A program made the translations under genes and the position numbers. DNA of 61,274 nucleotides from Candidatus Omnitrophota bacterium (GTDB lineage Bacteria; Omnitrophota; Gorgyraeia; Gygaellales; Profunditerraquicolaceae). Of this stretch, positions 12,858 through 39,436 are shown one piece after another (positions within the stretch are counted from its first letter, which is position 1; each line of letters begins with the position of its first letter). The notes under the pieces are model-generated. The model worked only from the letters and a program-made list of their open reading frames with translations. It was not told where the DNA came from and searched no databases. Location of the stretch: the NCBI GenBank assembly GCA_040754255.1, contig JBFMDA010000002.1, positions 1 through 61,274 on the forward strand, given 5' to 3'.

Positions 12858-12886
12858 ACTATATCATTAATTTTAATGTGAGTCAA
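12858..12886 (-). promoter_or_regulatory. sigma70-like promoter upstream of rpsU
   Basis: The minus strand reads TTGACT, then 17 nt, then TATAGT (plus-strand agtcaa 12881-12886 and actata 12858-12863). Confidence 0.5.
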
Positions 12887-12928: not shown

Positions 12929-14272
12929 TTATATAAGGGTTTTAAGGACTCTTGCGACCCTGCTTTTATTAGAAAGGTTTTTGATATCCTTTACAGTAAA
13001 ATGCCGTTTTGAAAAATTATTTTGGATTTCTTCCAAGTCTTCTACAGTAAGTTCATCGTTTGCAAACGGCATAAGCGAAGGGGCTAACTCCTCCAAATCC
13101 CTACCCTTTATGAGATGTGTATACTTAGCGTATTCTTCGGTACCGGGAATGGGGGTATAAGGCAACACCACCGGCAAGCATCCCAATTTCCAAACGTCTA
13201 TCAAAGTAAGGAGAATAGATTCTAAGCTCTGTCCGGGCAGGCCTATCAGAACAAATAACCAAATGTCATTCTCGTAACGCATGGTTTTATGGCAAAAATA
13301 ACCTTCGGCCTTAAATAATTTTACGACCTTCTCAAAATACGAAAGCTTCAGGTTCTTATGAAACCTGCGCTGCAAATTAAAATCACTGCTTTCTAAGGCC
13401 AGGCCTATATAGCTAACTCCGCTTAAACGCAATTTTCTGATAAGCTCCGGGTAAATTAAGCGCGGGTCGAAACCCTCAGGGATCTGAATAGATAGATCAA
13501 GTTTTAATTTTATAATCCTATCAAGTAATTTTTCAAAGTACACTTTTGCATCCTGCAAAATATTTGACTCCCAAAAAACTATTTTTCTGATGCCGCTGTT
13601 AACGCGCGATTGTAACTCAACGATAACATCTTCTATGGGGCGGTGCGTAATAATTCTGCCTTCTATTTTCGGAACTGCACAGTAGCTGCAGTTGTTACAA
13701 CAACCGCGGGTTGTTTTTATTATAGCGTATTTATATTCCTTTTCTCTCATTAGCTCCATAGCGGGCGGCAAATCGCCGGCTCCTTTAAATTGCCCGACAA
13801 TAACAGTATCCGCCCTTGATCTTTTGGCATGCTCAGGAGCAAGAGTTGGATAAATTCCTCCGATGGTAACAGGAATGTCCGGATACGCTTTTTTACAGAT
13901 CTCCACCACCCTATGGACGCCTTCCCAATAGAAAGTCAAGGATGAGCCCACATAGATTTCATCAGGTTTTTTAATTTTTCGTAGCTCGGTAATAAAAAAG
14001 GAATAAGGCTTACCGATATGGTAACGTTTTTTAAATATTTTCTTACTTCCCATGCCGCATCTTTTTTTATCAAAATGCCTGACCGGTTCATTATAGGGGT
14101 GGTCTTCTCCTATGTATTTATACATACCTTCTAGGAAATCAAAAAGGCGTACTTGACAGCCTTGATTTTTAAAAAAGGCTCCGATTTTTAATAATCCTGT
14201 GTTGTAATCAAAGTTTGCGTTTGGACGGCTATCTAGCAAGGGAGGGTTTATTAGTAATATTTCTTTCGGCAT
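12929..14272 (-). CDS. B12-binding-domain type radical SAM protein (class B-like), last gene of the island
   Basis: N-terminal ILLINPP... Rossmann-like region. rSAM motif TTRGCCNNCSYCAVP. Confidence 0.7.
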   Translation of the reverse strand: MPKEILLINPPLLDSRPNANFDYNTGLLKIGAFFKNQGCQVRLFDFLEGMYKYIGEDHPYNEPVRHFDKKRCGMGSKKIFKKRYHIGKPYSFFITELRKIKKPDEIYVGSSLTFYWEGVHRVVEICKKAYPDIPVTIGGIYPTLAPEHAKRSRADTVIVGQFKGAGDLPPAMELMREKEYKYAIIKTTRGCCNNCSYCAVPKIEGRIITHRPIEDVIVELQSRVNSGIRKIVFWESNILQDAKVYFEKLLDRIIKLKLDLSIQIPEGFDPRLIYPELIRKLRLSGVSYIGLALESSDFNLQRRFHKNLKLSYFEKVVKLFKAEGYFCHKTMRYENDIWLFVLIGLPGQSLESILLTLIDVWKLGCLPVVLPYTPIPGTEEYAKYTHLIKGRDLEELAPSLMPFANDELTVEDLEEIQNNFSKRHFTVKDIKNLSNKSRVARVLKTLI

Positions 14273-14285
14273 ACGAATTCTGGTT

Positions 14286-15266
14286 TTATAGCGGTTTTAT
14301 TTCGGAATCACCGTAGTGATAAATGTGATTTAAAAAAACTCCGGGGCAATATTGTCCAATTTGACAATGGACACACTTGCGTAATTTGTGGTACGAAAAA
14401 ACCCTAGAGTACAAAAATATCGCATCAGATATAGTGTCGTCTGTTTTTAATAATAAGTTCTCGTTATAGCTTTTTTGGCAAGAAACTATTCTCGCAAATC
14501 TTTTTGGCGATAACTCTTTTAAGACACACAATGGATAGCCGATAAAATTTAAATCGGAATTCCTAAATTTTGCTACTATTTCTTTGTAAGATGGCATCAA
14601 ATTTTTATAAGGAAGCTTTGCTTTATATTTAAGATGCAGTATCGAAAGGGTTTCTTTTGTAACTTTAGCGCAAAGCCCTATTATTCTATCTAAGTGGGCT
14701 ATATTTTGCTTAAGTAACAACGTGTGCGGGTAAATTTTTACACCTGAATGTGCCCTTAGATTATCCATGCCGCTTCTTAGCAGTCGATAGCTCTTGCAAT
14801 TTGCAACTATCTTATTATGTAATTTGTTTATACCGTATATCGGAATAGATATATTCCTTAATCCGCATCCTAGAAGTTTTTCGGTAAATGCGTGGTCAGA
14901 GAAAAATTCGCCGGATGAAATGGTTTCAATTGTTTTAAAACCGCATGTATTCGCAAATTCTAATAATTCTAAGATCCCAGGATAACGCAAGGGTTCATTC
15001 GCGGCAAGAAGCAAATGGGGCACCTTGTTTTTTTTATTAGACCGAATTAAATTTTTAAGTTTAGTGAGGCTTGATTCGTTATAGCCTTTATCAGGTTCAT
15101 CTTTATGAAAGCAAAAGATGCAGTAATTGCCGCACCCGGTTGAAAAACTTAGAACATTATATTTTTTATTGCAGCCCATCCCCTTTAATAAATGAAGCTG
15201 TTTGTCAAATGGTGAACTAAAAATACTTAGAAGAGCCTTATTATCCTGGTTAGAATCAGAATACAT
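14286..15266 (-). CDS. radical SAM protein with C-terminal Cx2Cx5CxG motif
   Basis: STGCGNYCIFCFH, AANEPLRYPG and CVHCQIGQYCPGV. Resembles the C-terminal half of the 694-aa protein (NEPLNYPG, SIYGYN). Confidence 0.7.
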   Translation of the reverse strand: MYSDSNQDNKALLSIFSSPFDKQLHLLKGMGCNKKYNVLSFSTGCGNYCIFCFHKDEPDKGYNESSLTKLKNLIRSNKKNKVPHLLLAANEPLRYPGILELLEFANTCGFKTIETISSGEFFSDHAFTEKLLGCGLRNISIPIYGINKLHNKIVANCKSYRLLRSGMDNLRAHSGVKIYPHTLLLKQNIAHLDRIIGLCAKVTKETLSILHLKYKAKLPYKNLMPSYKEIVAKFRNSDLNFIGYPLCVLKELSPKRFARIVSCQKSYNENLLLKTDDTISDAIFLYSRVFSYHKLRKCVHCQIGQYCPGVFLNHIYHYGDSEIKPL

Positions 15267-15274
15267 CTTGGTTT

Positions 15275-16426
15275 TTAGAAATAGGCGTGACTGATTTTTC
15301 CATACAGTAACAAATTTATTATAGGAAATTTAACTAATACGGTTATCACGGCGCCCAAAAATATAAAAGGTGCCAGTGGCAACGTTTTGTATATCTCTAT
15401 TTTTATAGGTAAACTTTTTTTTGTTACAATCTTTTTTATTTCATTAACCTGGTCTTTAGTCAACCCATCGGGATAAAGTGTACCAATTCCCTTGAAACCG
15501 AATTTCAGGATTGACTCTTCAGTGAGCTGTGATTTATCAGGCAAATTGTCAACCGACACCTCTTCTATTACATCGTTTCTTAAAGACAATAATCTCTTGA
15601 GAGAATAAAAAAGCGCAAAAAAGTAAGTAACATTCCTTACATACACAATAAAACTGAAAATTACAGCTGAGCCATATACTAGTAAAAAACTAATTAAAAG
15701 GACAGCCGTTACGAAACTTATAAAGACCAGTATTGTAGTTCGCGTAGCCAAAATTTTATTAAATGTTCTGAATAATAAAAGCGGCATTAGATAACTCACC
15801 AGCGAAACACTAGAGGATGATTTAAGGTATCTAAAATTAGCATCATACATTACCAGCTGAATCAGGATAAGCAAAGTAATATAACACCAGACGAATTTCA
15901 AATATTGATTTTTTTTCTTATTCATGTACTTAAAAATATTTCCAAAAGAAAACAGAAACGCTTCGTAAAAACCGCGTGAGCCGCTCTTTTGTAGCTTATT
16001 TCTAATAAAACCGACCGCCCTGATAAGAAAAACGGCTAATAAGTAAATAAAAAGCAACGCGAACACATTTGTTAAAAAAACAACTATGGGATAAAGCGGC
16101 AACATTTTTTGAAAAGGATCTACTTTTAATAGCACAAAAAATGAAAACAAAATAAAAAGCTTGGAATCTCCGGCTGCCCAGAATCCCAAATACCAAATTA
16201 TAAACGCGAGCAAAATTATTAACGAGGCATTCACAATCATAAAAGAAAGAAAACGAAGACTTGCATATTTCCACAACAACAAATATATAATGCTGATGGC
16301 AGTAAAAAATATACCCGCAATTACCAAATTATTTTTGATTTTTGAATATCTAATATCACTATACGAGCTACACAAACCAATAATTACAAACATAACGAAA
16401 TAAACAAGGTTTTCCATATAATTCAA
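15275..16426 (-). CDS. polytopic membrane protein, A24-family (prepilin-peptidase-like) aspartyl protease with an inserted soluble domain
   Basis: First Asp motif SDIRYSKIKNN (D24). Second is WAAGDSKLF (D87, GAT at 16166-16168). C-terminal LPLAPFIFLGAVI resembles the PFGPFL end of A24 peptidases. Many hydrophobic helices. Confidence 0.55.
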   Translation of the reverse strand: MNYMENLVYFVMFVIIGLCSSYSDIRYSKIKNNLVIAGIFFTAISIIYLLLWKYASLRFLSFMIVNASLIILLAFIIWYLGFWAAGDSKLFILFSFFVLLKVDPFQKMLPLYPIVVFLTNVFALLFIYLLAVFLIRAVGFIRNKLQKSGSRGFYEAFLFSFGNIFKYMNKKKNQYLKFVWCYITLLILIQLVMYDANFRYLKSSSSVSLVSYLMPLLLFRTFNKILATRTTILVFISFVTAVLLISFLLVYGSAVIFSFIVYVRNVTYFFALFYSLKRLLSLRNDVIEEVSVDNLPDKSQLTEESILKFGFKGIGTLYPDGLTKDQVNEIKKIVTKKSLPIKIEIYKTLPLAPFIFLGAVITVLVKFPIINLLLYGKISHAYF

Positions 16427-16455
16427 TGAGTGCTGAAACTAATTCTTTTTTTGAC

Positions 16456-17442
16456 TTAATATGCTGAAATAATTTTTTTTATAATTACGTTGGGATCGCT
16501 AAAAATAGGATAGAGTTCTTGGCTTCCGTACATATTGATATATTCTTTCTGGACTCCCGCACAAATTCTATTGACAGCGCAATAGACGCAACAGTCGGCT
16601 TTAATTCTAAATTTTGTCGGTTTCACCATTCTTACCTTATCCATTCTTTTTTTACTTATAAACGAACAAATATAAAGTTCGTTCTTGACTATTTTTCTGG
16701 TTTCGGATGAAAGCTCTTCAAAGCCTTGCATATAACATAACGGGACCCGCTCGATTCTCATTGTCTTACCATGTGTTCTCAATAACTCGACAGTTTTTTT
16801 CAGCTCCAACTCGATATCTGTATATCTTGCAACAATCCATTGGTTATTTACTACCCTGCTATTCATTTCGCCATCAGCCTTTCCCGGGTCGAGATTATTG
16901 TACACAAAATGGCGTATGTCGGGAAACGCCTTAATGAAAAATCCTGCAGTAATGGAAAGATTTTTGCAATTGAGCGTATTTATAGTACTATTGAGCGCCA
17001 CTTTAAAGCCCACCTTCAGTGAGTTCTCTAGCCCTTTTATTGCTTTTTTAAAATGGCCTTTCTTTTGAGATAACCTGTCTGCGATACTGCTACTATCAGA
17101 GTGAATTGAAATATTAATATCCCTTAGCCCTGATTTAAAAAGTTTTTTTGCCAGGCAAAGGTTTTCCAGTTCGCAGCCATTCGTAATTATCCTGCTTGCA
17201 ATGCCGTTTTTCTGAATAAAAGATATTACCTCCGGTAAAAAGCTTACCAATGTCGGCTCCCCGCCCGTAAGAATGATTTCAGAGATGTCTTGTTTTTTTA
17301 AAGCGGCGATTTTGTTTTTTATTTCATTTAAGCCATAATTTTTTTTAAATTGTGGGTTAGAACAAAATAGGCACTCATTATTACATTCCCGGGTAATCTG
17401 AAGATAGGCTGCTTTTCTGGGCCTTGCGCTCGTCATATACAT
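16456..17442 (-). CDS. radical SAM protein with SPASM/twitch-like C-terminus
   Basis: ITRECNNECLFCSNP, LTGGEPTL and CCVYCAVNRICAGV. Confidence 0.75.
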   Translation of the reverse strand: MYMTSARPRKAAYLQITRECNNECLFCSNPQFKKNYGLNEIKNKIAALKKQDISEIILTGGEPTLVSFLPEVISFIQKNGIASRIITNGCELENLCLAKKLFKSGLRDINISIHSDSSSIADRLSQKKGHFKKAIKGLENSLKVGFKVALNSTINTLNCKNLSITAGFFIKAFPDIRHFVYNNLDPGKADGEMNSRVVNNQWIVARYTDIELELKKTVELLRTHGKTMRIERVPLCYMQGFEELSSETRKIVKNELYICSFISKKRMDKVRMVKPTKFRIKADCCVYCAVNRICAGVQKEYINMYGSQELYPIFSDPNVIIKKIISAY

Positions 17443-17445
17443 AGT

Positions 17446-19283: not shown

Positions 19284-19322
19284 ATGTACTATGTTGCTAC
19301 CTTTCTCCTATTAGAGACTCAC

Positions 19323-21407: not shown

Positions 21408-21417
21408 AGGAGGGTTA

Positions 21418-23273: not shown

Positions 23274-23275
23274 CG

Positions 23276-26529: not shown

Positions 26530-26538
26530 TTTTAAGGA

Positions 26539-27579: not shown

Positions 27580-29453
27580 CGTTTAACCGTAAAATAAACG
27601 TCGACCTTTTGCGAACGCCTTGCGTAATCTATAGCCGCAATCACCGGGAACACGTTTCTTCCTTTTAAAGCGCACAAACTGGCTATTTTTGAAAAAACTT
27701 TTTCTGACGCTTCGTCTTTTGAATTAAGTAACATTTTCCTGATTTCTGGCATAATGATTTTAGAATCCTTAATTTGCCTAATTTCATATATCTTATATAA
27801 CTTAATTGAGTGGACAAGGCCGTCCGGTTGGAATCTTCTAGTAATGTAATAAAATGCTTTTGATCTATCTCCATTGTTATCTAAAATTGATTTCAAAATT
27901 TTGGAATTTGATTCCAGCCTATTATTTTTTAAAAGGGCTAAAAAGCCTACATCAGTCAACTTATCATACTTGCAATATATTTTTAAGTTACACTTTCCCC
28001 TTGGGATAAAATCTACGCAAATCGCGCCAATAACTTCGTGAGGATTAATTTGTAATTTTCGATAATCGATATCCAATAGCTCACAAATCCGTTGGAGAAT
28101 AATCCTGATTTCTGGCTGGGCAAAGTAATGGAACAATTCTTCAAAATAAACTTTTAGTCTTGGGCAACTTGTCCCGCTTAACCAATCTAAGCCAATGGTC
28201 GTTTGCTGCTTATTGCCAAACGGGACCATTATACGTAAAAGCTCATTCAATTGATTCATAGGGAAGGAATCGCCGAAAAGTTGGAAGATTCCCTTTAATT
28301 TGTGTGTGAACCTCTTTTTTTCTCCAAAATCATTATAACTAAATCTTAAACTTCTTGGATTATTATTGCTGGCCGAAATAGAAAAATCGAATTTTTGATT
28401 ATCTCCAAGCCATGTTTCGTCAAAACCTGAAAATAAAATATCTTTTATTTCACTAACCTTGCCATCCTGTATCTTCAGGCCATAGTGCGTAATGAGTAAA
28501 TTAGAAATATCCTCAAAAATAGAAACGGTAGAATCGCTGCCTGTGTTATGTATTGGAATTCTTTTTCTAACGGGCTTAAATTCTTCCCATCCGAATTTCT
28601 GCGGATACTCCCTCCAAGGGCCTTCACACACTGCGTAGTATCGGCACGAAGGACATTTTGTTGACTTACTTTTCCCCTCCTTTTTACGCACGATCCCAAA
28701 ATTTTCTATAACTCCGTTTACATCGAATATCTTTGTTTCGGGCAAAATCTTCTCAGCGATATAATCCTCAAAACCAGCCATAAAACAGTAAGGAATTGCC
28801 TCGGTCATCACTCTCTTCCCGGCGGATATGCCTTTTTCTAGGGCCAGCTTAACAAACGGCTCGACAAGCGTCATTCGGGGTACGATAGAATCAAAGTTAT
28901 CCTTTGCGCTTCCTAAAGGGTGAGGGAATGCGAATTGGAACTGGTCAACTCCGAGCCTAATCAATACGTCTGCTATCGAGGGCAAATACGGAAAATTAGA
29001 CTTGGTTATGACGGTATTGGTAATAACCGTCTGCCCTAGTTTTTTTAAGTTTGCTATCCCATCAACAGTTTGTGTAAAGCTGCCGGGAGAACTTGTGAGG
29101 TAATCATGCATTTGGGGGGTACTTCCGTGCAAGGCGGGAGAAAACTCATTCGCACCGCACTTAATCGCTTTTTTGCAAAAATCAAGATAAGAAAAAAAAC
29201 GACCATTAGACTGGACCTGGATAGTGTTGAAATTCAATGCTCTGGCAAAGGAAACTAATTGAAAGAAGTCCTTATGCAAGGTAGGCTCTCCACCGGTGAA
29301 GACTATATCGCAACAGCTCTGCCTAGCTTGCTCCATTTCTTTTCTTATAATACTGGCATCCCTGCTTCCATATGCATTGCGTTTTTCGCCCTGAACGCAA
29401 AATTTGCAGAAATTATTACAATTGAATCCGATCTTTATATCGGCTTTCATCAA
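27576..29453 (-). CDS. radical SAM (N-terminal ~300 aa) fused to an ABBA-prenyltransferase-like domain (C-terminal ~300 aa)
   Basis: IGFNCNNFCKFC, TGGEPTL, ALHGSTPQMHDYLTSSPGSF and CPSCRYYAVCEGP. Then KFDFSISAS, LRFSYNDFGEKKRF, PRLKVYFE, LKIYCKY and IKLYKIYE. Confidence 0.5.
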   Translation of the reverse strand: MMKADIKIGFNCNNFCKFCVQGEKRNAYGSRDASIIRKEMEQARQSCCDIVFTGGEPTLHKDFFQLVSFARALNFNTIQVQSNGRFFSYLDFCKKAIKCGANEFSPALHGSTPQMHDYLTSSPGSFTQTVDGIANLKKLGQTVITNTVITKSNFPYLPSIADVLIRLGVDQFQFAFPHPLGSAKDNFDSIVPRMTLVEPFVKLALEKGISAGKRVMTEAIPYCFMAGFEDYIAEKILPETKIFDVNGVIENFGIVRKKEGKSKSTKCPSCRYYAVCEGPWREYPQKFGWEEFKPVRKRIPIHNTGSDSTVSIFEDISNLLITHYGLKIQDGKVSEIKDILFSGFDETWLGDNQKFDFSISASNNNPRSLRFSYNDFGEKKRFTHKLKGIFQLFGDSFPMNQLNELLRIMVPFGNKQQTTIGLDWLSGTSCPRLKVYFEELFHYFAQPEIRIILQRICELLDIDYRKLQINPHEVIGAICVDFIPRGKCNLKIYCKYDKLTDVGFLALLKNNRLESNSKILKSILDNNGDRSKAFYYITRRFQPDGLVHSIKLYKIYEIRQIKDSKIIMPEIRKMLLNSKDEASEKVFSKIASLCALKGRNVFPVIAAIDYARRSQKVDVYFTVKR

Positions 29454-30379
29454 TTTAAAGTAGAAATAAATTCGGTAAGCTTATTATCGATAGTATGCGT
29501 GGATTTTAAAACTCTGAAAGGAGTGCATTTTTTAACAATGTTACCGAGGTCAGCGTTACGCATCATACGCTTTATGCTTTCAAAACTTCTAACCGAGTTC
29601 ACGTTTCCAAGCTTAAATTCTTTCGCATACTCAATAAAAGGCTTGGCAAGAAAAACATTGCTTGGAAAAATATCGCCGTTGCAATCAACAGTTACATTCT
29701 GATTAAAAAGAGGGACGCTTCCTAAGTTAAATTTATTTTTTACTTTAATATTGAAATCAGCCCCGAACTTGTTTATAAATATAGAAATCCGTTTCAAAGC
29801 TGACGCTATTTTTCTAATACTAACTTGATCCCAGTAAGCGAAATAGCTGGGAAGAAAATTAAAACTTCTAAATCCTAACCTCAAGAAATTAAAGAAGCGT
29901 TCCTCCAAGTTGCGAAGAGAATGTCGATCAATAAAAAAATTAAGGCTAAGATGCGAGAGGAGAAATAGCGAACTAAGACCGCCTCTGTTAGAAAACGTAT
30001 TAGAGTTGACGATTATTTCAAAATTACTGAGAGACCTGAAAAAATTTATTTTCTCTTCAGTTAACAATAAGCCATTCGTGGTGAGGTTAAGAAAAACGGG
30101 TCTTTTTTGCCTTGCCGCAACCTTCTTGGAATATACATATATTTTTTTTACCGTTTCAAATTCCAAGAGAGGCTCTCCCCCAAACAGCCTTATTAAAAAA
30201 CCACCGGGATCTAAGGCAGAATTAGAAAATAGGCTTAGGCTCTGTTTGGCGGTAGAAAATAACATCGAACATCTTTTTTTTAATAAAGGGCAATTACGGC
30301 ATGAAAGGTTACAGCGACGGGTGACAGTGAGCGTTAAGATATTATCTTCGGAGAATACATTACCGCAAGAAAGATACAT
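29450..30379 (-). CDS. HxsC-like radical SAM protein (AnSME-like core, no SPASM cysteines)
   Basis: VTRRCNLSCRNCP, FGGEPLL, TTNGLLLTEEKINFF. Starts 9 nt after the stop of the HxS-repeat peptide gene. Confidence 0.55.
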   Translation of the reverse strand: MYLSCGNVFSEDNILTLTVTRRCNLSCRNCPLLKKRCSMLFSTAKQSLSLFSNSALDPGGFLIRLFGGEPLLEFETVKKIYVYSKKVAARQKRPVFLNLTTNGLLLTEEKINFFRSLSNFEIIVNSNTFSNRGGLSSLFLLSHLSLNFFIDRHSLRNLEERFFNFLRLGFRSFNFLPSYFAYWDQVSIRKIASALKRISIFINKFGADFNIKVKNKFNLGSVPLFNQNVTVDCNGDIFPSNVFLAKPFIEYAKEFKLGNVNSVRSFESIKRMMRNADLGNIVKKCTPFRVLKSTHTIDNKLTEFISTLN

Positions 30380-30388
30380 ATAAAAGAA

Positions 30389-30559
30389 TCACCATTGCCC
30401 GTGGGAACCGTGGGAGCTATGAGAACCGTGAGAACTATGCCCGCCCCTGTTTCCTGAGCCAAAATCATTCGATATATAACTTCCGTGGGTGTCCCATTGG
30501 GCATATACATTTTCCATGGCTTGAATAATCAAAAAGATAGTCATTAAACTTATCCCCAT
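30389..30559 (-). CDS. hxsA: exported His-Xaa-Ser repeat peptide (HxsA-like), 56 aa; candidate maturation substrate
   Basis: The internal ATG at 30557-30559 of the 124-aa track ORF gives MGISLMTIFLIIQAMENVYAQWDTHGSYISNDFGSGNRGGHSSHGSHSSHGSHGQW. This has a signal-peptide-like N-terminus and tandem HSS-HGS-HSS-HGS-HGQ encoded at 30395-30439. The start codon is uncertain because there is no strong RBS. Confidence 0.6.
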   Translation of the reverse strand: MGISLMTIFLIIQAMENVYAQWDTHGSYISNDFGSGNRGGHSSHGSHSSHGSHGQW

Positions 30560-30623
30560 TTTTACCGCATTTTTTCTTGTAATCCTTGCTTCCTCGCTAG
30601 AAAGAAAAAACTTAAGGTCCTTC

Positions 30624-31187
30624 TTAATTTGCGGAAGTTTCTTCAAGGCTCGCCTCCTTTTTTTTCCAATAATTTTCAAATACTTGACCTGCCTCTTCTT
30701 GCGTGAAACCGTGCGTAGTTTGTTCCAAAAACTTGGCCTTCTCTCTTTCTTTGATTTGGGCATCTACGGCCTTACGATCCTCAACAAGCTTAGGCTCTGA
30801 GCCATCAGGGCACGTAAGGTAGGAATGCGAGAACATCTTCGAGTCGCATACAAAACGAAGATCAACTATTTTTCTTTCCCAACCGTTTTTATACTTAAAG
30901 TCCCTTTTCCCGCTGATAGGATCGCTGTAAATTACCACCTTCAGCCCTCTCATGTATGGAGGCGGATTCTGGATATTATTAATCAAATAGGGTTTCCCTC
31001 GTACCAGGCCTATTCTCCCTTCCTCAACTTTTTGCAACTCCCCCTTACATACAGGGCATACATCGCCTTCCTTCGGTGAAATGAAAACAACCTCATCATT
31101 TGGACAGCCTCTAATTTCAACGGCACACGCAACACTTGAATGTAAAAGGACAAATACAAAAATAGCTATAAAAGGAATCCTCTTCAT
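30624..31187 (-). CDS. exported protein with CPxC motif
   Basis: Signal peptide MKRIPFIAIFVFVLLHSSVACA|VE. ISPKEGDVCPVCKGELQKV resembles the short CPxCGMxL heavy-metal-binding domain (from memory). Charged C-terminus. Confidence 0.6.
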   Translation of the reverse strand: MKRIPFIAIFVFVLLHSSVACAVEIRGCPNDEVVFISPKEGDVCPVCKGELQKVEEGRIGLVRGKPYLINNIQNPPPYMRGLKVVIYSDPISGKRDFKYKNGWERKIVDLRFVCDSKMFSHSYLTCPDGSEPKLVEDRKAVDAQIKEREKAKFLEQTTHGFTQEEAGQVFENYWKKKEASLEETSAN

Positions 31188-31200
31188 CAGCCCCTCCGCT

Positions 31201-32622
31201 TCAAGAAATCCACTTAGAAAAGATTTTTTTATACTCCTCGTCGTTCAGCCTGTCAAACAGGTATCCCAAAATAAAACTATTCATCTTGCATAATCTGCTA
31301 TTGGGCAACTGACAGAATAAGTTTCCTGTCTCTGCATAATTGATAACAGGGCAAATGCCACAATACGGCTTATACGCGCAATAATCGCAATACACGCTTT
31401 CCTGGCAAGAAGCAAAACAACTTGCAGGGATATTTACTGAATTAATGATATCTTTAAAGCTGTCTGTGCGCACGTTGCCAATCAAAAACGTGTCCTCCTG
31501 AAGCATCCTGGCTTCATCACAAGTATACACTTTTCCATCGTAATTATAGACGATCTGGCCGATGCCTGCACCACAGGGAGAGCGCAGGTCTAAGTAGGAA
31601 GGGTCTCGTTTTAATAAAATTTTGACGAGGAATATTTTTGCCGTCCTTTCAGACATTGTTGTCTTACCCGCTATGTTAAGCTTAACTAAATAGTCGAGGG
31701 CTTTTTTGTAAAAGTTAGCAAACTCTTCTGAAGTGTAACCTATTCTTTTTCTGTTTGCTTTTGACATCCCCAGGTTACTTATGGGGCGGAGATGAATTTC
31801 TTGAAATCCCCACTTGCGATATTCCTCAATTATCTCCTTAGGGTATTTGAGAGAAAATTTAGACAAGGTCAATAAAGCGCTAAGCCGCCTTTTGTGATTA
31901 TCGAATTTTTTGACCATTTTTATCTTTTGGGTAGTCAAATCGTATGAACTCCTGCCGGAAAAAAATTTCCTATTCCTGTCGTGCAGCGCCCGCGGGCCAT
32001 CTAAAGAGGTGCAGATGCCGACATTTTGATCGATGAGGAATTTGAGCTTATCTTTTGACAGAAGGCTAAGATTAGATACAAGCGTGATATTTACTAATTT
32101 TTTAAATGTTTTATTCATTGCAATTGTTTTCCGGCAAATAAATTCTATAGTTTCCCAGTTTGCTAAGGGCTCTCCTCCCTGCAATTCAATAGTAATGGCT
32201 TTTGAAGGAGATTCGAATATTGCCTCTAATGTCTTTTCTGCAGTGGCCTTGTCCATATCGTAGCCTTTTGCAGAAAACCCCTTGGCTGAGGCCTGGCAAT
32301 ATATACAGGAATGATTGCATCTTAAAGTGACTACTATGATGTGTAATGTCGGACCGCGCCAGATGAAGGAATTCTTCTGTCGGTATTGTTCAATAAGCTC
32401 GAAATTTTTAAGACGGTTCCTTATAAAACCCTTTCCTATCAACTCCTGATACACGGGTTCGTTTTTTCTTATCTCATTGTTCACTAACTTATTGAAAACA
32501 CTTTTTTTTAAAAAAATGTGCTCTCCTGCTTCAGTAGTCAACAGCACGTTTCCATTACATTCCCGGAAACGGAAAAAAGCCAAATTCCCTATCTCATCAA
32601 TTTTCTTTAACGCAGAACGCAT
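31201..32622 (-). CDS. hxsB: HxsB-like radical SAM/SPASM peptide maturase
   Basis: 473 aa. N-terminal ~90-aa non-rSAM domain, VTLRCNHSCIYCQASA, LQGGEPL and a full SPASM block CDYCAYKPYCGICP. Confidence 0.6.
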   Translation of the reverse strand: MRSALKKIDEIGNLAFFRFRECNGNVLLTTEAGEHIFLKKSVFNKLVNNEIRKNEPVYQELIGKGFIRNRLKNFELIEQYRQKNSFIWRGPTLHIIVVTLRCNHSCIYCQASAKGFSAKGYDMDKATAEKTLEAIFESPSKAITIELQGGEPLANWETIEFICRKTIAMNKTFKKLVNITLVSNLSLLSKDKLKFLIDQNVGICTSLDGPRALHDRNRKFFSGRSSYDLTTQKIKMVKKFDNHKRRLSALLTLSKFSLKYPKEIIEEYRKWGFQEIHLRPISNLGMSKANRKRIGYTSEEFANFYKKALDYLVKLNIAGKTTMSERTAKIFLVKILLKRDPSYLDLRSPCGAGIGQIVYNYDGKVYTCDEARMLQEDTFLIGNVRTDSFKDIINSVNIPASCFASCQESVYCDYCAYKPYCGICPVINYAETGNLFCQLPNSRLCKMNSFILGYLFDRLNDEEYKKIFSKWIS

Positions 32623-32623
32623 A

Positions 32624-32833
32624 TCAGGGGGATTTTATTGAAGCTAACACATAATTACAGAATTCTTGCTTTATTACCTTATGATACCCATTATCATAAT
32701 CGTATACACCTACCCGAATATAACGGTTTTTTTGTTTTATCGTAAATTTAGCTATGCCCTGGAAGGCTTTTATAGCTTTTAGAATTGATGATTGGGGATA
32801 GAGGTTTTTATGGAAATCGATGAATAACATCAA
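32624..32833 (-). CDS. small HxsD-like protein (short paralog)
   Basis: 69 aa. YPQSSILKAIKAF...FCNYVLAS parallels YPLEAIYATCYVF...FLNELLNNTLR of the neighbouring 142-aa protein. Confidence 0.35.
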   Translation of the reverse strand: MMLFIDFHKNLYPQSSILKAIKAFQGIAKFTIKQKNRYIRVGVYDYDNGYHKVIKQEFCNYVLASIKSP

Positions 32834-33258
32834 CGGGACTTTTTGCGTTTGTATTTCTCTTCCCAGGGGATCGCAATGCCCTCGGGATCATTTTGCCAAG
32901 ACTGATTTGTTTTCTCTTCCGAAGCGACAACCCCGTCGATTTCTTTCTTGGGCTGCGAGAAAAATAAAGCCTCTTTGACTATCATTTCCCGGATACGCTG
33001 ATTTCTTTTGGATATTTTAAACCGCAAGGTATTATTTAACAGTTCATTCAGGAATTCGCCTTTTAACAGATTGTGATTCCGCCTGTTGGAAGCTTTAGGC
33101 GTAAAAACGATTTTTATCCGCTGCCTCACCTCGTCTAAAAAAAGGTAGTACCTATCCACAAAGACATAACAAGTAGCGTATATTGCCTCAAGGGGATAGA
33201 TTCTGGGGTTTATAAGGAATTCCTGTTCTTTTTTGGCGTATTTAGACATAACCCGCAC
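32830..33258 (-). CDS. HxsD-like protein
   Basis: 142 aa. IYPLEAIYATCYVFVDRYY...KGEFLNELLNNTLRFKI resembles the LLNDYxLRE signature I recall for the HxsD family. 4-nt overlap with the next gene. Confidence 0.4.
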   Translation of the reverse strand: MRVMSKYAKKEQEFLINPRIYPLEAIYATCYVFVDRYYLFLDEVRQRIKIVFTPKASNRRNHNLLKGEFLNELLNNTLRFKISKRNQRIREMIVKEALFFSQPKKEIDGVVASEEKTNQSWQNDPEGIAIPWEEKYKRKKSR

Positions 33259-33261
33259 AGA

Positions 33262-33858
33262 TCATGTATGTTGGACGCAAATCATGTAACCATTGGGAGG
33301 ACATCCATATTGCGTAAGCCATGAATTCCATCTATATAATGCAGGTGCTGTAAGCCTACCAGCACCAGCTCCACAATCTCCAGAACCGCAAGCCACAGCG
33401 AAATAATTAACAGGACAACGCGAATAAGTAGTTGAACCAGCATTAGTAGCGTATTCGTAACAAGCTGAGGCGTTTATGCCTCCGGTTACGGTTAAAGTAC
33501 CATTTATAATCACGTTAATATTGCCGCTGCCAGCGTTGTCTAGCCTAAGCGTATTATCGTTTATTAATATAATTCTTGCCCTGGGAGTACAACCACCGCC
33601 TCTGTCAAACTCTACCCATGGAGTAGCAGCAGCAAAACTTCCGCCTAGCGTTACGGAAGACCCATTCGAATTTACCAGCCCGCCGCATCCGGTAGTAGCA
33701 TTACCCCATTCTAATTCCCGATAGCTTCCGTAGGGAGAGGGATAGTATGTAACAACGGAAATCTTTTCTTCTGTCTGGGCATACAAAAAAGCAAAGCTTG
33801 CCAGAAGAAACACTAAAATCACTACCCCTATTGTAGTTGTTTCAGCCCCCTTTACCAT
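33262..33858 (-). CDS. exported Gly/Cys-rich protein, first gene of the island
   Basis: N-terminal hydrophobic segment ending FLYA|QTEE. 8 Cys. Repeat-like ILINDNTLRLDNAGSGNINVIINGTLTVTGGINA. GGAGG RBS 6 nt before the ATG. Confidence 0.6.
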   Translation of the reverse strand: MVKGAETTTIGVVILVFLLASFAFLYAQTEEKISVVTYYPSPYGSYRELEWGNATTGCGGLVNSNGSSVTLGGSFAAATPWVEFDRGGGCTPRARIILINDNTLRLDNAGSGNINVIINGTLTVTGGINASACYEYATNAGSTTYSRCPVNYFAVACGSGDCGAGAGRLTAPALYRWNSWLTQYGCPPNGYMICVQHT

Positions 33859-33880
33859 GCTTTGCCTCCGTCTTAATTAA

Positions 33881-33909
33881 AGTATAATTTAAAAAAAATG
33901 ACCCGTCAA
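33881..33909 (-). promoter_or_regulatory. sigma70-like promoter of the radical-SAM island
   Basis: The minus strand reads TTGACG, then 17 nt, then TATACT (plus-strand cgtcaa 33904-33909 and agtata 33881-33886). The -35 box overlaps the mtaB stop codon. Confidence 0.5.
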
Positions 33910-35934: not shown

Positions 35935-35941
35935 TATTCTC

Positions 35942-38081: not shown

Positions 38082-38082
38082 A

Positions 38083-39180: not shown

Positions 39181-39287
39181 ATAGCTATAAATCTCATGGT
39201 GTCGCCGCGCTCGCTGCTGTGCTTGTTGATTTACTCTCGTATCTAGTGTCGGTAAATCATCCCGGCGAATGCATATGAGTCGGGACT

Positions 39288-39416: not shown

Positions 39417-39436
39417 TGCTCACTGCGTTGCTTGCC

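What the first reader, a model, noticed from the sequence alone, without database searches (positions are those of the whole stretch)
12929..33909. A 21-kb, 21-gene co-directional island carrying 14 radical-SAM domains behind its own promoter
I counted CxxxCxxC cores in the supplied translations. They are 447aa CNNCSYC, 326aa CGNYCIFC, 328aa CNNECLFC, 304aa CNNNCIFC, 694aa CNNRCLFC plus CKKGCIFC, 308aa CNNGCLFC, 310aa CANSCIFC, 472aa CVSKCFYC, 308aa CCNRCIFC, 346aa CCLKCKYC, 625aa CNNFCKFC, 309aa CNLSCRNC and 473aa CNHSCIYC. That is 14 domains in 13 proteins. All 21 genes are on one strand with gaps of at most 64 nt. Five junctions overlap by 4 nt (18369-18372, 22341-22344, 27576-27579, 29450-29453, 32830-32833), which argues for a single translationally coupled operon. 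It starts at a TTGACG-17-TATACT promoter (33881-33909). The island also holds a His-Xaa-Ser repeat peptide, an A24-type membrane protease, two ABBA-like domains and three exported proteins. The Hxs system as I recall it has only two rSAMs, and I know of no characterised pathway with this composition. Working hypothesis: multi-step radical maturation of an exported peptide or protein, RiPP-like and possibly metal-binding. Alternative: tailoring of a cofactor, lipid or glycan.
Basis: partly seen in the sequence, partly recalled or inferred. Interest (0 to 1): 0.9.

Follow-up and report, generated by a model that had tools for sequence, protein, structure and literature searches.

The report
Expanded His-Xaa-Ser radical SAM operon
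An uncultured Omnitrophota bacterium carries a 21-gene block that encodes a short histidine-serine repeat peptide plus 13 radical-SAM enzymes, two prenyltransferase-like domains and a membrane protease that most likely modify and export it; it is a much enlarged, uncharacterised relative of the four-gene HXS system recently shown to block phage DNA entry.

Summary
There are 21 tightly packed minus-strand genes at 12929-33858. Thirteen proteins pass the Pfam Radical_SAM threshold, giving 14 domains, each with an intact CxxxCxxC.

The island is an expanded His-Xaa-Ser (Hxs) system. HxsD, an HxsD-like protein and HxsB pass NCBIfam cut-offs. The precursor is 85 aa (true start TTG 30646, not the downstream ATG). 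It has a leader conserved in 49 distinct precursors from other genomes and metagenomes, then five H-x-S repeats.

The other enzymes are:
- nine HxsC-like domains, all ancient paralogs;
- two SPASM-less HxsB-like enzymes;
- one HemN-like and one B12-type radical-SAM enzyme.

The two "ABBA-like" domains do fold like aromatic prenyltransferases. The A24-like membrane protein keeps both catalytic Asp motifs.

The same core recurs in 32 of 80 species-representative loci (Omnitrophota, CPR/Patescibacteria, Elusimicrobiota and others). A sister Omnitrophota MAG has it at the same chromosomal site, with dN/dS of 0.06-0.29.

Co-directionality is not distinctive, because the whole window is minus-strand. 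The promoter match is not statistically special.

Chemistry and biological role are unknown. I found no published description, but the literature search was cut short by time-outs. It is a new variant of a known kind, of high interest.

The parts
33881..33909 (-). Sigma-70-like promoter match TTGACG-17-TATACT in the 47-nt gap before the first gene. The -35 hexamer overlaps the stop codon of the upstream mtaB-like gene.
   Evidence: It scores 10 of 12 and is the best match in 32300-36000, but the number of such matches is not above the shuffled controls.
33262..33858 (-). g01: a 198-aa protein with an N-terminal hydrophobic anchor or signal sequence and a YYPSPYGSY motif. Function unknown. It is preceded by a GGAGG Shine-Dalgarno.
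   Evidence: Homologues sit directly upstream of hxsD in one Omnitrophota and two Elusimicrobia loci (L027, L030, L031). No Pfam, NCBIfam or PDB match.
32830..33258 (-). g02: HxsD, 142 aa.
   Evidence: TIGR03976 scores 59.8 bits against a cut-off of 50. The family alignment shows the GEFxNELLNxxLR core and a conserved DPLGIAxPWE tail.
32624..32833 (-). g03: HxsD-like protein, 69 aa, core domain only.
   Evidence: NF038315 scores 63 bits against a cut-off of 41. It has the EFxNYVL motif and overlaps g02 by 4 nt.
31201..32622 (-). g04: HxsB, a radical-SAM/SPASM maturase of 473 aa.
   Evidence: TIGR03978 scores 481 bits against a cut-off of 370. It also hits PF04055 and PF13186 SPASM. It is 37% identical to Aeromonas HxsB.
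30624..31187 (-). g05: a 187-aa protein with a signal peptide and several cysteines. Function unknown. It is preceded by a GGAGG Shine-Dalgarno.
   Evidence: Homologues lie between hxsD-like and hxsA in Omnitrophota loci L013 and L027.
30389..30646 (-). g06: HxsA-like precursor peptide of 85 aa with a TTG start. It has a leader (KKLPQIKKDLKFFLSSEEARITRKNAVK), a hydrophobic helix, a VYA|Q signal-peptidase-like site, and the core HSS-HGS-HSS-HGS-HGQW.
   Evidence: An AGGAGG lies 6 nt before the TTG. HxsA3 scores 49.6 against 65, and HxsA4 scores 33.9 against 55. The leader is conserved in 49 distinct precursors.
29450..30379 (-). g07: radical-SAM enzyme of 309 aa, HxsB/PapB-like N-terminal half, with no SPASM domain.
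   Evidence: PF04055 scores 31.8 bits. PapB and HxsB models align only over the first ~110 residues. No C-terminal Cys motif.
27576..29453 (-). g08: a 625-aa fusion. Residues 1-300 are an HxsC-like radical-SAM domain. Residues ~300-625 are an ABBA (aromatic prenyltransferase)-like domain.
   Evidence: The C-terminal half is 28% identical to g10 (E = 7e-17). The N-terminal half is the best-conserved core enzyme, up to 63% identical across phyla.
26539..27579 (-). g09: radical-SAM enzyme of 346 aa, HxsB/PapB-like, with no SPASM domain.
   Evidence: PapB scores 145 bits over model positions 5-220 of 330, and HxsB scores 99 bits. dN/dS is 0.06.
25573..26529 (-). g10: stand-alone ABBA-fold domain, 318 aa, a putative prenyltransferase.
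   Evidence: The AF2 model has pLDDT 72 and pTM 0.73, with five alpha-alpha-beta-beta repeats. The listed top 50 Foldseek PDB hits are all ABBA prenyltransferases, probability 0.97-1.00 (1.00 for the first 42) and TM 0.42-0.61. Lys/Tyr on the barrel strands are conserved. It has no Pfam family. The family is rare, with 91 cluster representatives.
24669..25595 (-). g11: HxsC-like radical-SAM enzyme, 308 aa.
   Evidence: Best NCBIfam hits are HxsC4 (104 bits) and HxsC (73 bits), both below cut-off. It has the C-terminal CxxCx5CxG motif.
23276..24694 (-). g12: HemN-like (class C-type) radical-SAM enzyme, 472 aa.
   Evidence: STM4012, HemN, HemZ and HemW models score 150-169 bits, all below their cut-offs. 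It recurs in 18 loci.
22341..23273 (-). g13: HxsC-like radical-SAM enzyme, 310 aa.
   Evidence: HxsC scores 90 bits and HxsC4 88 bits. Orthologues are 31-57% identical in 21 loci.
21418..22344 (-). g14: HxsC-like radical-SAM enzyme, 308 aa.
   Evidence: HxsC4 scores 135 bits. It has a 40%-identical orthologue in Omnitrophota locus L005.
19323..21407 (-). g15: a 694-aa protein with two HxsC-like radical-SAM domains (CNNRCLFC and CKKGCIFC).
   Evidence: Two PF04055 stretches. 204 homologues were found, with full-length ones in Omnitrophota and Moranbacteria. It is a core gene of the system.
18369..19283 (-). g16: HxsC-like radical-SAM enzyme, 304 aa. It is the window protein closest to NCBIfam HxsC4.
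   Evidence: HxsC4 scores 184.7 bits against a cut-off of 500. The best score for this orthogroup elsewhere is 284.5 bits.
17446..18372 (-). g17: DUF483 protein of 308 aa, with GYPxCC and HxPCSYDC motifs. Function unknown.
   Evidence: PF04467 scores 33.2 bits against a cut-off of 25. Elsewhere it is fused to a g15N-type radical-SAM domain (P0044). The AF2 model failed.
16456..17442 (-). g18: HxsC-like radical-SAM enzyme, 328 aa, a core gene.
   Evidence: HxsC scores 97.8 bits. Orthologues are found in 46 loci.
15275..16426 (-). g19: polytopic membrane protein with an N-terminal A24 (prepilin-peptidase-type) aspartyl-protease domain. The likely start is the ATG at 16417 (380 aa).
   Evidence: PF01478 gives E = 6.7e-4 and 20.5 bits, below the 26.5 cut-off. 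The D-x4-KI(K/R)N and W(A/P)AGD(A/S)KL motifs are conserved in nearly all of the 36 aligned homologues. It closes the cluster in most loci.
14286..15266 (-). g20: divergent HxsC-like radical-SAM enzyme, 326 aa.
   Evidence: HxsC4 scores 71.7 bits and HxsC 50.9 bits. It has the CxxCx5CxG motif.
12929..14272 (-). g21: B12-binding-domain radical-SAM enzyme, 447 aa. It is the last gene of the island.
   Evidence: PF04055 scores 53 bits and PF02310 scores 29 bits. It recurs in Elusimicrobia and Omnitrophota loci. dN/dS is 0.06.

Best explanation
The island is a greatly expanded member of the His-Xaa-Ser (Hxs) family of radical-SAM peptide-maturation systems, in a Candidatus Omnitrophota chromosome.

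Proposed mechanism:
1. The 85-aa HxsA-like precursor is made in excess. It is one of only three genes with a strong Shine-Dalgarno.
2. Its conserved N-terminal leader (KK(D/N)(L/I)KxFLxSEEGKIxKK) is recognised in the cytoplasm by HxsB and by the HxsD and HxsD-like adaptor proteins.
3. The C-terminal H-x-S repeat core is then modified stepwise by HxsB, two SPASM-less HxsB-like enzymes and nine specialised HxsC-like radical-SAM domains. These would make radical cross-links or carbon insertions, by analogy with the +8 Da change on SHRSS in E. coli HXS.
4. A HemN-like enzyme and a B12-type radical-SAM enzyme probably add C-methyl groups or one-carbon units.
5. Two ABBA-fold domains, one of them fused to an HxsC-like enzyme, probably add a prenyl group. 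His or the conserved C-terminal Trp are candidate sites.
6. The peptide's own hydrophobic helix inserts into the membrane. The leader is removed by the dedicated A24-type aspartyl protease and/or by signal peptidase at VYA|Q. This leaves a roughly 36-residue hypermodified peptide outside the cytoplasm.

Its role is most likely in the cell envelope, either phage or host-interface defence as in HXS, or metal binding.

Shown here: family memberships, precursor architecture, predicted fold, catalytic motifs, conserved synteny and purifying selection. Inferred: every chemical step, the order of steps, the cleavage site and the biological role.
For: - Curated-model membership: HxsB 481 against 370, HxsD 59.8 against 50, HxsD-like 63 against 41.
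- All nine further small radical-SAM domains have HxsC4 or HxsC as their best NCBIfam hits. All share an N-terminal CxxxCxxC and a C-terminal CxxCx5CxG.
- Precursor: five H-x-S repeats. The leader is conserved in 49 distinct precursors, with F, E and E invariant, while the repeat number varies from 4 to 54. Several relatives pass the HxsA4 cut-off.
- Conserved order D-(D')-B-A-[g07/g09]-g08-g15-g18-A24 in Omnitrophota, CPR/Patescibacteria, Elusimicrobiota, Spirochaetes and others. 32 of 80 loci carry an Hxs marker plus the core, and 24 also carry the A24-like gene.
- Orthologues across phyla are up to 40-63% identical for six of the eight HxsC-like proteins (g11 up to 38%, g20 up to 31%). Paralogs inside the window are only 20-33% identical, so the paralogs are old and specialised. 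No recent DNA-level duplication was found.
- A sister MAG has the same genes g07-g21 at the same site, with dN/dS of 0.06-0.29, like the flanking housekeeping genes.
- ABBA fold, with recurrent fusion to radical-SAM domains.
- A24 catalytic motifs.
- Strong Shine-Dalgarno only before g01, g05 and the precursor gene.
- Experimental precedent in E. coli: HxsB, HxsC and HxsD are needed for N-terminal processing, a +8 Da modification and export of HxsA, and HxsC binds HxsD (PMC13128918).
Against: - No enzyme here passes the HxsC or HxsC4 cut-offs. Identity to classical HxsC is only 21-25%, and the ~105-residue N-terminal domain of HxsC is missing.
- The precursor is below the HxsA3 and HxsA4 cut-offs and has no match to classical HxsA. 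It lacks the peptidoglycan-binding domain needed for HXS defence (PMC13128918).
- The A24 match is below Pfam's gathering score. The residue before the hydrophobic helix is Gly in only about two-thirds of precursors, which is unusual for prepilin-type cleavage.
- The ABBA model is of medium confidence (pLDDT 72, five-sequence alignment). ABBA domains occur in only about 10 of the 80 loci, so prenylation cannot be a core step.
- With only five repeats, it is unclear why 14 radical-SAM domains are needed. Other substrates, such as g01 and g05, cannot be excluded.
- There are no expression data.
Confidence: 0.65

Rival explanations
1. Same biochemistry, specific role: an antiphage barrier. The matured His-rich peptide sits in the envelope and blocks phage DNA entry, as shown for the four-gene HXS system. 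The extra enzymes diversify or harden the effector.
For: HXS (HxsDBCA) confers broad antiphage defence through a matured periplasmic HxsA whose HxS repeats are all required (PMC13128918). The window shares HxsB, HxsD, HxS repeats and an export signal. G+C is lower than in the flanks, which hints at horizontal acquisition.
Against: The precursor has no peptidoglycan-binding domain, which was essential in E. coli. The flanks are housekeeping genes, with no defence or mobile genes. PADLOC gives only generic radical-SAM similarity. The island sits at a conserved chromosomal position in a sister MAG. It is broadly retained in very small CPR genomes, and 99.7% of classical HXS systems are in Pseudomonadota.
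Confidence: 0.25
2. Same biochemistry, different role: a metal-binding peptide, either a metallophore or metallochaperone or the scaffold of a peptide-derived cofactor. The radical-SAM enzymes would convert His/Ser (and Cys in CPR versions) into chelating heterocycles or cross-links.
For: The core is poly-(His-Gly/Ser-Ser), with 4-54 repeats. In CPR it is often bracketed by Cys and ends in GGWC or CCCGTTGY. Exported Cys-rich partner proteins g01 and g05 are present. The system is retained in reduced genomes and in a housekeeping context.
Against: No transporter, TonB-type receptor or metal-regulated element is present in the island. The only experimental precedent for this family points to DNA binding and defence.
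Confidence: 0.2
3. The precursor is a pilin-like subunit. A long basic leader followed by a hydrophobic helix is a class-III-type signal. The A24 protease cleaves it, and the modified peptides assemble into, or decorate, a surface filament.
For: An A24-family protease with both catalytic Asp motifs is a near-constant terminal gene of the system. A [K/R]-[L/M/I]-[G/A/T] junction lies directly before the hydrophobic segment. Type IV pilus or T2SS ATPase and platform genes lie elsewhere in the window at 57008-59961.
Against: There is no Glu at +5 and Gly at -1 is not invariant. Most precursors also have an AxA-type signal-peptidase site after the helix, which would release the core from the helix. 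No pilus assembly genes are in the island.
Confidence: 0.1
4. Not one pathway: a chance or loosely linked run of radical-SAM genes serving unrelated housekeeping tasks such as heme, lipid or cofactor tailoring.
For: HemN-like and B12-type radical-SAM enzymes also occur in heme and lipid pathways. The same window holds six more radical-SAM genes outside the island. Operon structure is not demonstrated.
Against: Gene content and order are conserved across at least five phyla together with the precursor. No protein reaches any housekeeping equivalog cut-off. Intergenic gaps are at most 39 nt and there are eight overlaps. Domains are fused across component types: radical-SAM with ABBA, and radical-SAM with DUF483.
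Confidence: 0.04

Closest known systems
HXS / His-Xaa-Ser system (HxsD-HxsB-HxsC-HxsA; TIGR03976-03979). Predicted by Haft & Basu 2011 and characterised as antiphage by Li et al., Nat Commun 2026 (PMC13128918).
   Same: It has bona fide HxsB and HxsD, a neighbouring exported protein with tandem His-Xaa-Ser repeats, and small radical-SAM enzymes whose nearest family is HxsC, carrying a second C-terminal Cys cluster. N-terminal processing of the substrate is expected.
   Different: - 21 genes rather than 4, and 14 radical-SAM domains rather than 2.
- The HxsC-like enzymes are only 21-25% identical to HxsC and lack its N-terminal domain.
- The precursor is an 85-aa peptide with a long conserved leader and no peptidoglycan-binding domain.
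- It has a second HxsD-like protein, HemN-like and B12-type radical-SAM enzymes, ABBA-fold domains, DUF483 and a dedicated A24-type protease.
- It is found in Omnitrophota, CPR and Elusimicrobiota rather than Pseudomonadota.
NCBIfam variant-Hxs models: HxsA3 (NF038309), HxsA4 (NF038313), HxsC4 (NF038332, labelled 'rare') and HxsD-like (NF038315).
   Same: The HxsD-like model is passed. The precursor aligns end to end with HxsA3. Precursors in related loci (L010, L013, L040, L049) pass HxsA4. g16 belongs to the orthogroup nearest HxsC4. NCBI's curators have therefore already noticed this class of variant system.
   Different: The window's precursor scores 49.6 against 65 and 33.9 against 55, and all of its HxsC-like proteins score at most 185 against 500, so all fall below cut-off. 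These models name single proteins. I found no description of the multi-enzyme architecture, the A24 protease or the ABBA domains.
Radical-SAM/SPASM RiPP pathways (ranthipeptides/PapB, SCIFF, sactipeptides, polytheonamides).
   Same: It follows leader-core precursor logic, with a SPASM maturase that has an N-terminal extension (HxsB), PapB-like catalytic domains (g07, g09), B12-dependent radical-SAM tailoring and a dedicated leader protease.
   Different: To my knowledge, known RiPP clusters carry one to a few radical-SAM enzymes, not 13. The core is a His/Ser repeat rather than a Cys-rich motif. g07 and g09 lack the SPASM domain.
ABBA aromatic prenyltransferases, including the peptide-prenylating cyanobactin enzymes (LimF, PagF) and indole prenyltransferases (AmbP1/3, FamD1, IptA, CloQ, NphB).
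   Same: The predicted ten-strand barrel has five alpha-alpha-beta-beta units, with conserved Lys/Tyr on alternate strands, as in the diphosphate-binding ring. LimF prenylates His in peptides.
   Different: There is no detectable sequence similarity and no Pfam hit. The family is rare and unannotated, and is often fused to radical-SAM domains. Activity and substrate are unknown.
Peptidase family A24 (prepilin and preflagellin peptidases PilD, TadV/CpaA, FlaK).
   Same: It is a polytopic membrane protein with the two Asp motifs (D...IxN and GxGD-like AGDxKL).
   Different: It scores below the Pfam gathering threshold, and it has a long extra C-terminal membrane and soluble part. Its presumed substrate lacks the canonical G|F/M...E5 site, and it is not linked to pilus genes.

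Membership tests
His-Xaa-Ser (Hxs/HXS) system | HxsB radical-SAM/SPASM maturase (TIGR03978 equivalog) | tested here: met
   481.4 bits against a cut-off of 370, full length. 37% identical to Aeromonas HxsB.
His-Xaa-Ser (Hxs/HXS) system | HxsD small protein (TIGR03976) | tested here: met
   59.8 bits against a cut-off of 50. A second, HxsD-like protein scores 63 against 41.
His-Xaa-Ser (Hxs/HXS) system | HxsC radical-SAM maturase (TIGR03977 equivalog) | tested here: not met
   The best scores are 146.7 bits (summed over two domains) and 101.5 bits (single domain), against a cut-off of 267.9. Identity to classical HxsC is 21-25%, and the N-terminal ~105 residues are absent. The relationship is family-level only.
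His-Xaa-Ser (Hxs/HXS) system | HxsA substrate with tandem His-Xaa-Ser repeats | tested here: inconclusive
   Five H-x-S repeats are present. There is no hit to TIGR03979, HxsA3 scores 49.6 against 65, and HxsA4 scores 33.9 against 55. The leader is shared with peptides that do pass HxsA4.
His-Xaa-Ser (Hxs/HXS) system | Four-gene architecture D-B-C-A, as in more than 99% of described systems | tested here: not met
   There are 21 genes, in the order x-D-D'-B-x-A followed by 15 more. The comparison is from PMC13128918.
His-Xaa-Ser (Hxs/HXS) system | HxsA peptidoglycan-binding domain; antiphage block of DNA entry | tested here: not met
   The domain is absent, because the precursor is only 85 aa. 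The antiphage phenotype cannot be tested with these tools.
NCBIfam HxsC4 (NF038332) | Score of at least 500 bits | tested here: not met
   g16 scores 184.7, g15 171.8 and g08 166. The best related orthologue scores 284.5.
RiPP (ribosomally synthesised, post-translationally modified peptide) | Short precursor with a conserved leader and a distinct core, encoded beside its maturases | tested here: met
   The leader is conserved in 49 distinct precursors while the core repeat number varies from 4 to 54.
RiPP (ribosomally synthesised, post-translationally modified peptide) | Demonstrated post-translational modification of the core | not testable with these tools
   This needs expression and mass spectrometry.
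Radical SAM superfamily (PF04055) | CxxxCxxC cluster motif and a Pfam gathering score, for each of the 14 domains | tested here: met
   The lowest-scoring protein (g07) has 31.8 bits against a cut-off of 29.5.
ABBA aromatic prenyltransferase fold | Ten-strand antiparallel barrel of five alpha-alpha-beta-beta repeats | tested here: met
   The AF2 model has pLDDT 72 and pTM 0.73 with five repeats. The listed top 50 PDB matches are all ABBA prenyltransferases.
ABBA aromatic prenyltransferase fold | Sequence membership in a known prenyltransferase family; prenyl-transfer activity | tested here: not met
   Neither the window domains nor relatives hit any Pfam family. Activity is not testable here.
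Peptidase A24 (prepilin-type aspartyl protease) | Two catalytic Asp in conserved motifs within a polytopic membrane domain | tested here: met
   D-x4-KI(K/R)N and W(A/P)AGD(A/S)KL are conserved in nearly all of the 36 aligned homologues.
Peptidase A24 (prepilin-type aspartyl protease) | Pfam PF01478 gathering score | tested here: not met
   20.5 bits against a cut-off of 26.5.
Ranthipeptide/SPASM maturases (PapB, NF047865) | Full-length match including the SPASM auxiliary-cluster domain (for g07 and g09) | tested here: not met
   g09 scores 145 bits against 340 and g07 scores 83.6 bits. The matches stop at model position 220 or 110 of 330. There are no C-terminal Cys motifs.

The most novel reading that the evidence does not exclude
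This may be the largest radical-SAM peptide-maturation pathway yet seen. About a dozen specialised radical-SAM enzymes, plus prenyltransferase-like domains and a dedicated intramembrane protease, would convert a simple (His-Xaa-Ser)n peptide into a chemically new, hypermodified envelope molecule. The pathway is conserved across ultra-small and episymbiotic lineages (Omnitrophota, CPR/Patescibacteria, Elusimicrobiota), where it takes up roughly 1-2% of a genome. That share is my estimate from typical CPR genome sizes, not a figure measured here. It implies a central role at the cell surface, in phage exclusion, host attachment or metal handling, that has no characterised counterpart.
Probability: 0.35. 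Interest if true: 0.85.

Novelty: new variant of a known kind. Interest (0 to 1): 0.7.

Why it matters
- The chemistry of Hxs maturation is still unsolved. Only a +8 Da change has been seen in E. coli. A natural system with nine diverged HxsC-type domains, methyltransferase-type radical-SAM enzymes and prenyltransferase-like partners offers a set of separable steps for working out what these enzymes do to His and Ser residues.
- It extends a newly discovered antiphage family from Pseudomonadota into candidate phyla with tiny genomes. There, a cluster of about 20 kb is a large investment, which points to an important envelope function in organisms that are otherwise poorly understood.
- It defines three unannotated families that could be named and modelled:
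  1. the leader-bearing short HxsA precursors;
  2. an ABBA-fold domain that is repeatedly fused to radical-SAM enzymes;
  3. an A24-like protease tied to a RiPP-like system.

Tried and rejected
- **Exact-sequence contig look-up of the central HemN-like protein:** not on record.
- **PADLOC defence models:** only generic viperin-type radical-SAM similarity, nothing specific.
- **Word-indexed homology search for the ABBA-like protein:** only 3-4 hits, even with a profile. The exhaustive search gave 91 representatives, none with a known prenyltransferase Pfam domain, and one was a PH-domain false positive.
- **Structure prediction of the DUF483 protein from a two-sequence alignment:** failed (pLDDT 38.7). 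DUF483 therefore remains unassigned. The PDB sequence search also found nothing.
- **PDB sequence or profile searches for g01 and HxsD:** nothing significant. I could not test whether HxsD is an RRE/PqqD-like leader binder.
- **Metagenome scan with HxsB:** 149 relatives, all at most 53% identical, so no further close relatives of this island. The genome scan's best match to the double radical-SAM protein was 42%. The only close relative (L084) came from cluster membership, and that contig ends before hxsA.
- **Repeat search:** only short motif-coding repeats (GGEPT, CxxxCxxC, LRFSxND). This rules out recent duplication.
- **Rfam scan:** no riboswitch or other RNA in the island.
- **Literature searches:** timed out. 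Only the His-Xaa-Ser/Hxs* query and one radical-SAM/Omnitrophota/RiPP query completed, so the novelty check is incomplete.
- **Rejected idea — the island is delimited by strand:** the whole window is minus-strand.
- **Rejected idea — the HemN-like or B12-type enzymes are housekeeping HemN, HemW or MiaB:** all are far below the equivalog cut-offs.

Full report
**1. Observation**

The region 12929-33858 holds 21 consecutive minus-strand ORFs. All 13 proteins pass the Pfam Radical_SAM gathering score, and the 694-aa protein passes with two separate stretches.

Two more junctions overlap by 26 and 23 nt, and the remaining gaps are at most 39 nt.

TTGACG-17-TATACT sits at 33909-33881, in the 47-nt gap after the upstream mtaB-like gene and before a GGAGG-ATG start.

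Three points need qualifying:
- Every real gene in the 61-kb window is on the minus strand, so co-directionality does not define the island.
- Promoter-like matches are no more frequent than in shuffled sequence, so the promoter is only plausible.
- The precursor gene was annotated too short (see section 2).

The island is set apart by lower G+C (0.34-0.42 against about 0.47). It is flanked by housekeeping genes. Upstream are mtaB, rsmE and AmmeMemoRadiSam genes. Downstream are rpsU with its own promoter-like site, an AP-endonuclease-fold protein, a Memo-like gene, aroQ and a PepQ-like peptidase.

**2. Identity of the parts**

NCBIfam places three proteins in the His-Xaa-Ser system above curated cut-offs:
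- HxsD (142 aa): 59.8 against 50.
- An HxsD-like protein (69 aa): 63 against 41.
- HxsB (473 aa): 481 against 370.

The small ORF after the 187-aa gene aligns end to end with the HxsA3 model, starting at residue 43 of the longest ORF. An AGGAGG lies 6 nt before a TTG at 30646. The peptide from that start is MKKLPQIKKDLKFFLSSEEARITRKNAVKMGISLMTIFLIIQAMENVYAQWDTHGSYISNDFGSGNRGGHSSHGSHSSHGSHGQW. It consists of a basic leader, a hydrophobic helix, a VYA|Q signal-peptidase-like site, and five H-x-S repeats ending in GQW.

Nine further radical-SAM domains have HxsC4 or HxsC as their best NCBIfam hits, all well below cut-off. They are g08N, g11, g13, g14, g15N, g15C, g16, g18 and g20. Each is about 300 aa, with an N-terminal CxxxCxxC and a C-terminal CxxCx5CxG motif.

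g07 and g09 are HxsB/PapB-like catalytic domains without a SPASM domain. g12 is HemN-like, and g21 is a B12-domain radical-SAM enzyme.

g19 matches Peptidase_A24 only weakly (20.5 bits against 26.5). An alignment of 36 homologues, however, shows both catalytic aspartate motifs, D-x4-KI(K/R)N and W(A/P)AGD(A/S)KL, conserved in nearly all.

g10 and the C-terminal half of g08 are paralogs (28% identity, E = 7e-17). They match no Pfam family. An AlphaFold2 model of g10 (pLDDT 72, pTM 0.73) shows five alpha-alpha-beta-beta repeats. The listed top 50 Foldseek matches in the PDB are all ABBA aromatic prenyltransferases, including AmbP1/3, FamD1, IptA, CloQ, NphB and the His-prenylating LimF. Probabilities are 0.97-1.00 and TM-scores 0.42-0.61. 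The invariant residues are Lys and Tyr on alternate barrel strands, as in the diphosphate-binding ring of such enzymes; that comparison rests on my own knowledge of the fold.

The ABBA-like family is rare, with 91 cluster representatives among 1.84 billion proteins. It is repeatedly fused to radical-SAM domains on either side.

g17 is a DUF483 protein that is fused elsewhere to a g15N-type radical-SAM domain. Its structure prediction failed. g01 and g05 are exported proteins with no family assignment.

**3. Organism and recurrence**

The window's AccC falls in a 90%-identity cluster with Candidatus Omnitrophota proteins.

A sister MAG contig (QZKA01000024.1, L084) carries g07 to g21, rpsU and the same downstream genes in the same order. 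Amino-acid identities are 67-92%. dN/dS is 0.06-0.29 for all 15 shared island genes, against 0.09-0.16 for three flanking housekeeping genes and 0.01 for rpsU. All 15 are therefore maintained by selection.

A scan of one genome per species, using a profile of the double radical-SAM protein, found more than 512 relatives and returned 80 loci. Comparing each locus with the window shows a recurring core: HxsD, sometimes HxsD-like, HxsB, HxsA, a g07- or g09-type enzyme, g08N, g15, g18 and the A24-like protein. The variable accessories are g13, g16, HemN-like, g20, g11, g14, DUF483, B12-type radical-SAM and ABBA.

32 of the 80 loci carry an Hxs marker plus the g08, g15 and g18 core within 10 kb, and 24 of those also carry the A24-like gene. 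They come from Omnitrophota, Moraniibacteriota, Parcubacteria, Saccharibacteria and other Patescibacteria, Elusimicrobiota and Spirochaetes. There are also two MAGs labelled Gammaproteobacteria and some Myxococcota.

Radical-SAM ORFs per locus range from 1 to 13 (4-12 in the 32 loci that carry the core). The window, with 13, is at the top. One other Omnitrophota locus has at least 13 to 15, and a Moraniibacteriota locus has 12.

Orthologues across phyla reach 40-63% identity for six of the eight HxsC-like proteins (g11 reaches 38% and g20 31%). The paralogs within the window are only 20-33% identical to each other. DNA repeats are limited to motif-coding stretches. The paralogs are therefore ancient and specialised, not a recent amplification.

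**4. The precursor family**

Harvesting H-x-S repeat ORFs from all loci, including 80 metagenome loci found with HxsB, gave 58 distinct peptides carrying the leader motif; 49 of them, including the window's own, could be aligned on the motif.

The leader consensus is K-(L/I/F)-P-x-I-K-K-(D/N)-(L/I)-K-x-F-L-x-S-E-E-G-K-I-x-K-K-(N/D)-x-x-K-(L/M/I)-(G/A/T), with Phe, Glu and Glu invariant. It is followed by a hydrophobic helix and a spacer that often ends in an AxA-like site. Then come 4 to 54 H-x-S repeats (median 10; the middle residue is mostly Gly or Ser). The tails vary (GQW, GGWC, CCCGTTGY...).

A conserved leader with a variable repeat core is the signature of a recognition sequence for maturases. 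Four of the ten related precursors tested pass the NCBIfam HxsA4 cut-off. The HxsC4 model is nearest the g16 orthogroup, but nothing I tested reaches it.

Strong Shine-Dalgarno sequences occur only before g01, g05 and the precursor gene. Most enzyme genes lack one and abut or overlap their neighbours. This fits high precursor output with translationally coupled enzymes.

**5. Comparison with the known system**

The classical four-gene HXS system (order D-B-C-A) is now experimentally characterised. HxsB, HxsC and HxsD are all needed for N-terminal processing, a site-specific +8 Da change on an SHRSS motif, and periplasmic accumulation of HxsA. HxsC binds HxsD, and the matured protein blocks phage DNA entry. 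In that study, 99.7% of systems are in Pseudomonadota and more than 99.8% have exactly four genes (PMC13128918).

I made a direct comparison with an Aeromonas plasmid system:
- HxsB is 37% identical to the window's HxsB.
- HxsC is only 21-25% identical to the window's paralogs (closest is g08N). It carries an extra N-terminal domain of about 105 residues.
- HxsA is a 192-aa protein with a plain signal peptide and a C-terminal peptidoglycan-binding domain. It is unlike the 85-aa peptide here apart from the repeats.

The window is therefore a relative of HXS, not a member of it in the strict sense.

**6. Most likely mechanism**

See the best explanation for the full statement. In short, the leader guides iterative radical-SAM modification of the H-x-S core in the cytoplasm, with HxsD-type adaptors. 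HemN-like and B12-type enzymes supply one-carbon chemistry. ABBA domains may add a prenyl group. The peptide then inserts into the membrane through its own helix, and the leader is removed by the A24-type protease and/or signal peptidase. The result is a small, hypermodified peptide in the envelope.

What is shown here is family membership, architecture, predicted fold, catalytic motifs, synteny and selection. All the chemistry and the biological role are inferred.

The roles I consider, in order, are an envelope barrier against phage (by analogy with HXS), metal binding, and a pilin-like surface structure. A chance collection of unrelated radical-SAM genes is effectively excluded by the conserved synteny and the domain fusions.

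**7. Novelty and limits**

I found no description of this multi-enzyme arrangement. A full-text search for His-Xaa-Ser and the Hxs gene names returned only the 2026 HXS paper, incidental genome reports, and one RiPP-mining paper that does not cover it. A search on Omnitrophota, radical SAM and RiPP returned only general biosynthetic-cluster surveys. Later searches timed out, so the check is incomplete.

The NCBIfam models HxsA3, HxsA4, HxsC4 and HxsD-like show that curators have met variant systems.

I rate this a new variant of a known kind. A specialist would find the scale (14 radical-SAM domains serving one short peptide), the unannotated ABBA-fold and A24-like partners, and the spread through candidate phyla with small genomes surprising. 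The system also makes the open question of Hxs chemistry more tractable.

Noticed in passing
window 39755-52560 (minus strand): A second radical-SAM-rich block that looks like a glycan or envelope cluster. It holds a radical-SAM/SPASM protein (39755-40885), a nucleotidyltransferase, an epimerase/dehydratase, three B12-binding radical-SAM enzymes (42691-44115, 44073-45428, 47565-48995), GT1 and GT2 glycosyltransferases and a PMT_2-type membrane glycosyltransferase. Together with MtaB and the AmmeMemoRadiSam enzyme, the window encodes 19 radical-SAM proteins in 61 kb.
   Followed up: partly
window 36597-39423 and 10936-11754: AmmeMemoRadiSam components lie on both sides of the island. Upstream are a fused AmmeMemoSam B+A protein and the system's radical-SAM enzyme. 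Downstream is a second Memo-like (AmmeMemoSam_B) gene. The low-G+C island may have inserted into, or next to, this neighbourhood.
   Followed up: no
window 12662-12823 and 12858-12886: A 53-aa ORF is ribosomal protein S21 (rpsU). It is preceded by an extended -10 promoter-like site, TTGACT-17-(TG)TATAGT. This marks the downstream end of the island.
   Followed up: yes
window 33859-33880, 31188-31200, 30647-30660: Strong Shine-Dalgarno sequences (GGAGG or AGGAGG) occur only before g01, g05 and the precursor gene. Most of the 18 other genes have none (g14-g16 show only weak 4-nt matches) and abut or overlap their neighbours.
   Followed up: partly
L099 7445-8212 and 12294-12791; L086-L147 generally: Metagenome relatives encode much longer precursors, with up to 54 H-x-S repeats, internal 'TPPSxGEHTSxFxNVxG' spacers, and Cys-rich tails such as CCCGTTGY. 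One locus carries two precursor genes about 5 kb apart.
   Followed up: partly
L063 10010-16698 (MAG labelled Nanoarchaeota): Orthologues of g08N, g15 and g18, 48-52% identical, appear in a contig binned as Nanoarchaeota. This is either cross-domain transfer among ultra-small cells or a binning error.
   Followed up: no
L057-L083 (Myxococcota, including Nannocystis punicea FL3 chromosome, L080): Many Myxococcota carry a g15N-like radical-SAM gene alone or with one partner, without the rest of the system. A few Myxococcota loci (L049, L073) do have HxsD, HxsB, an HxsA4-passing precursor and several HxsC-like genes. A cultured host with a partial system could be a route to experiments.
   Followed up: partly
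window 57008-61244: Type IV pilus or type II secretion genes lie at the window's right end: a PilB/GspE-like ATPase of 572 aa, a PilC-like platform protein of 411 aa and a further 427-aa protein. I identified them only from their N-terminal sequences.
   Followed up: no
window 1069-1139 and 39494-39566: Two tRNA genes on the minus strand are the only Rfam matches in the window.
   Followed up: no
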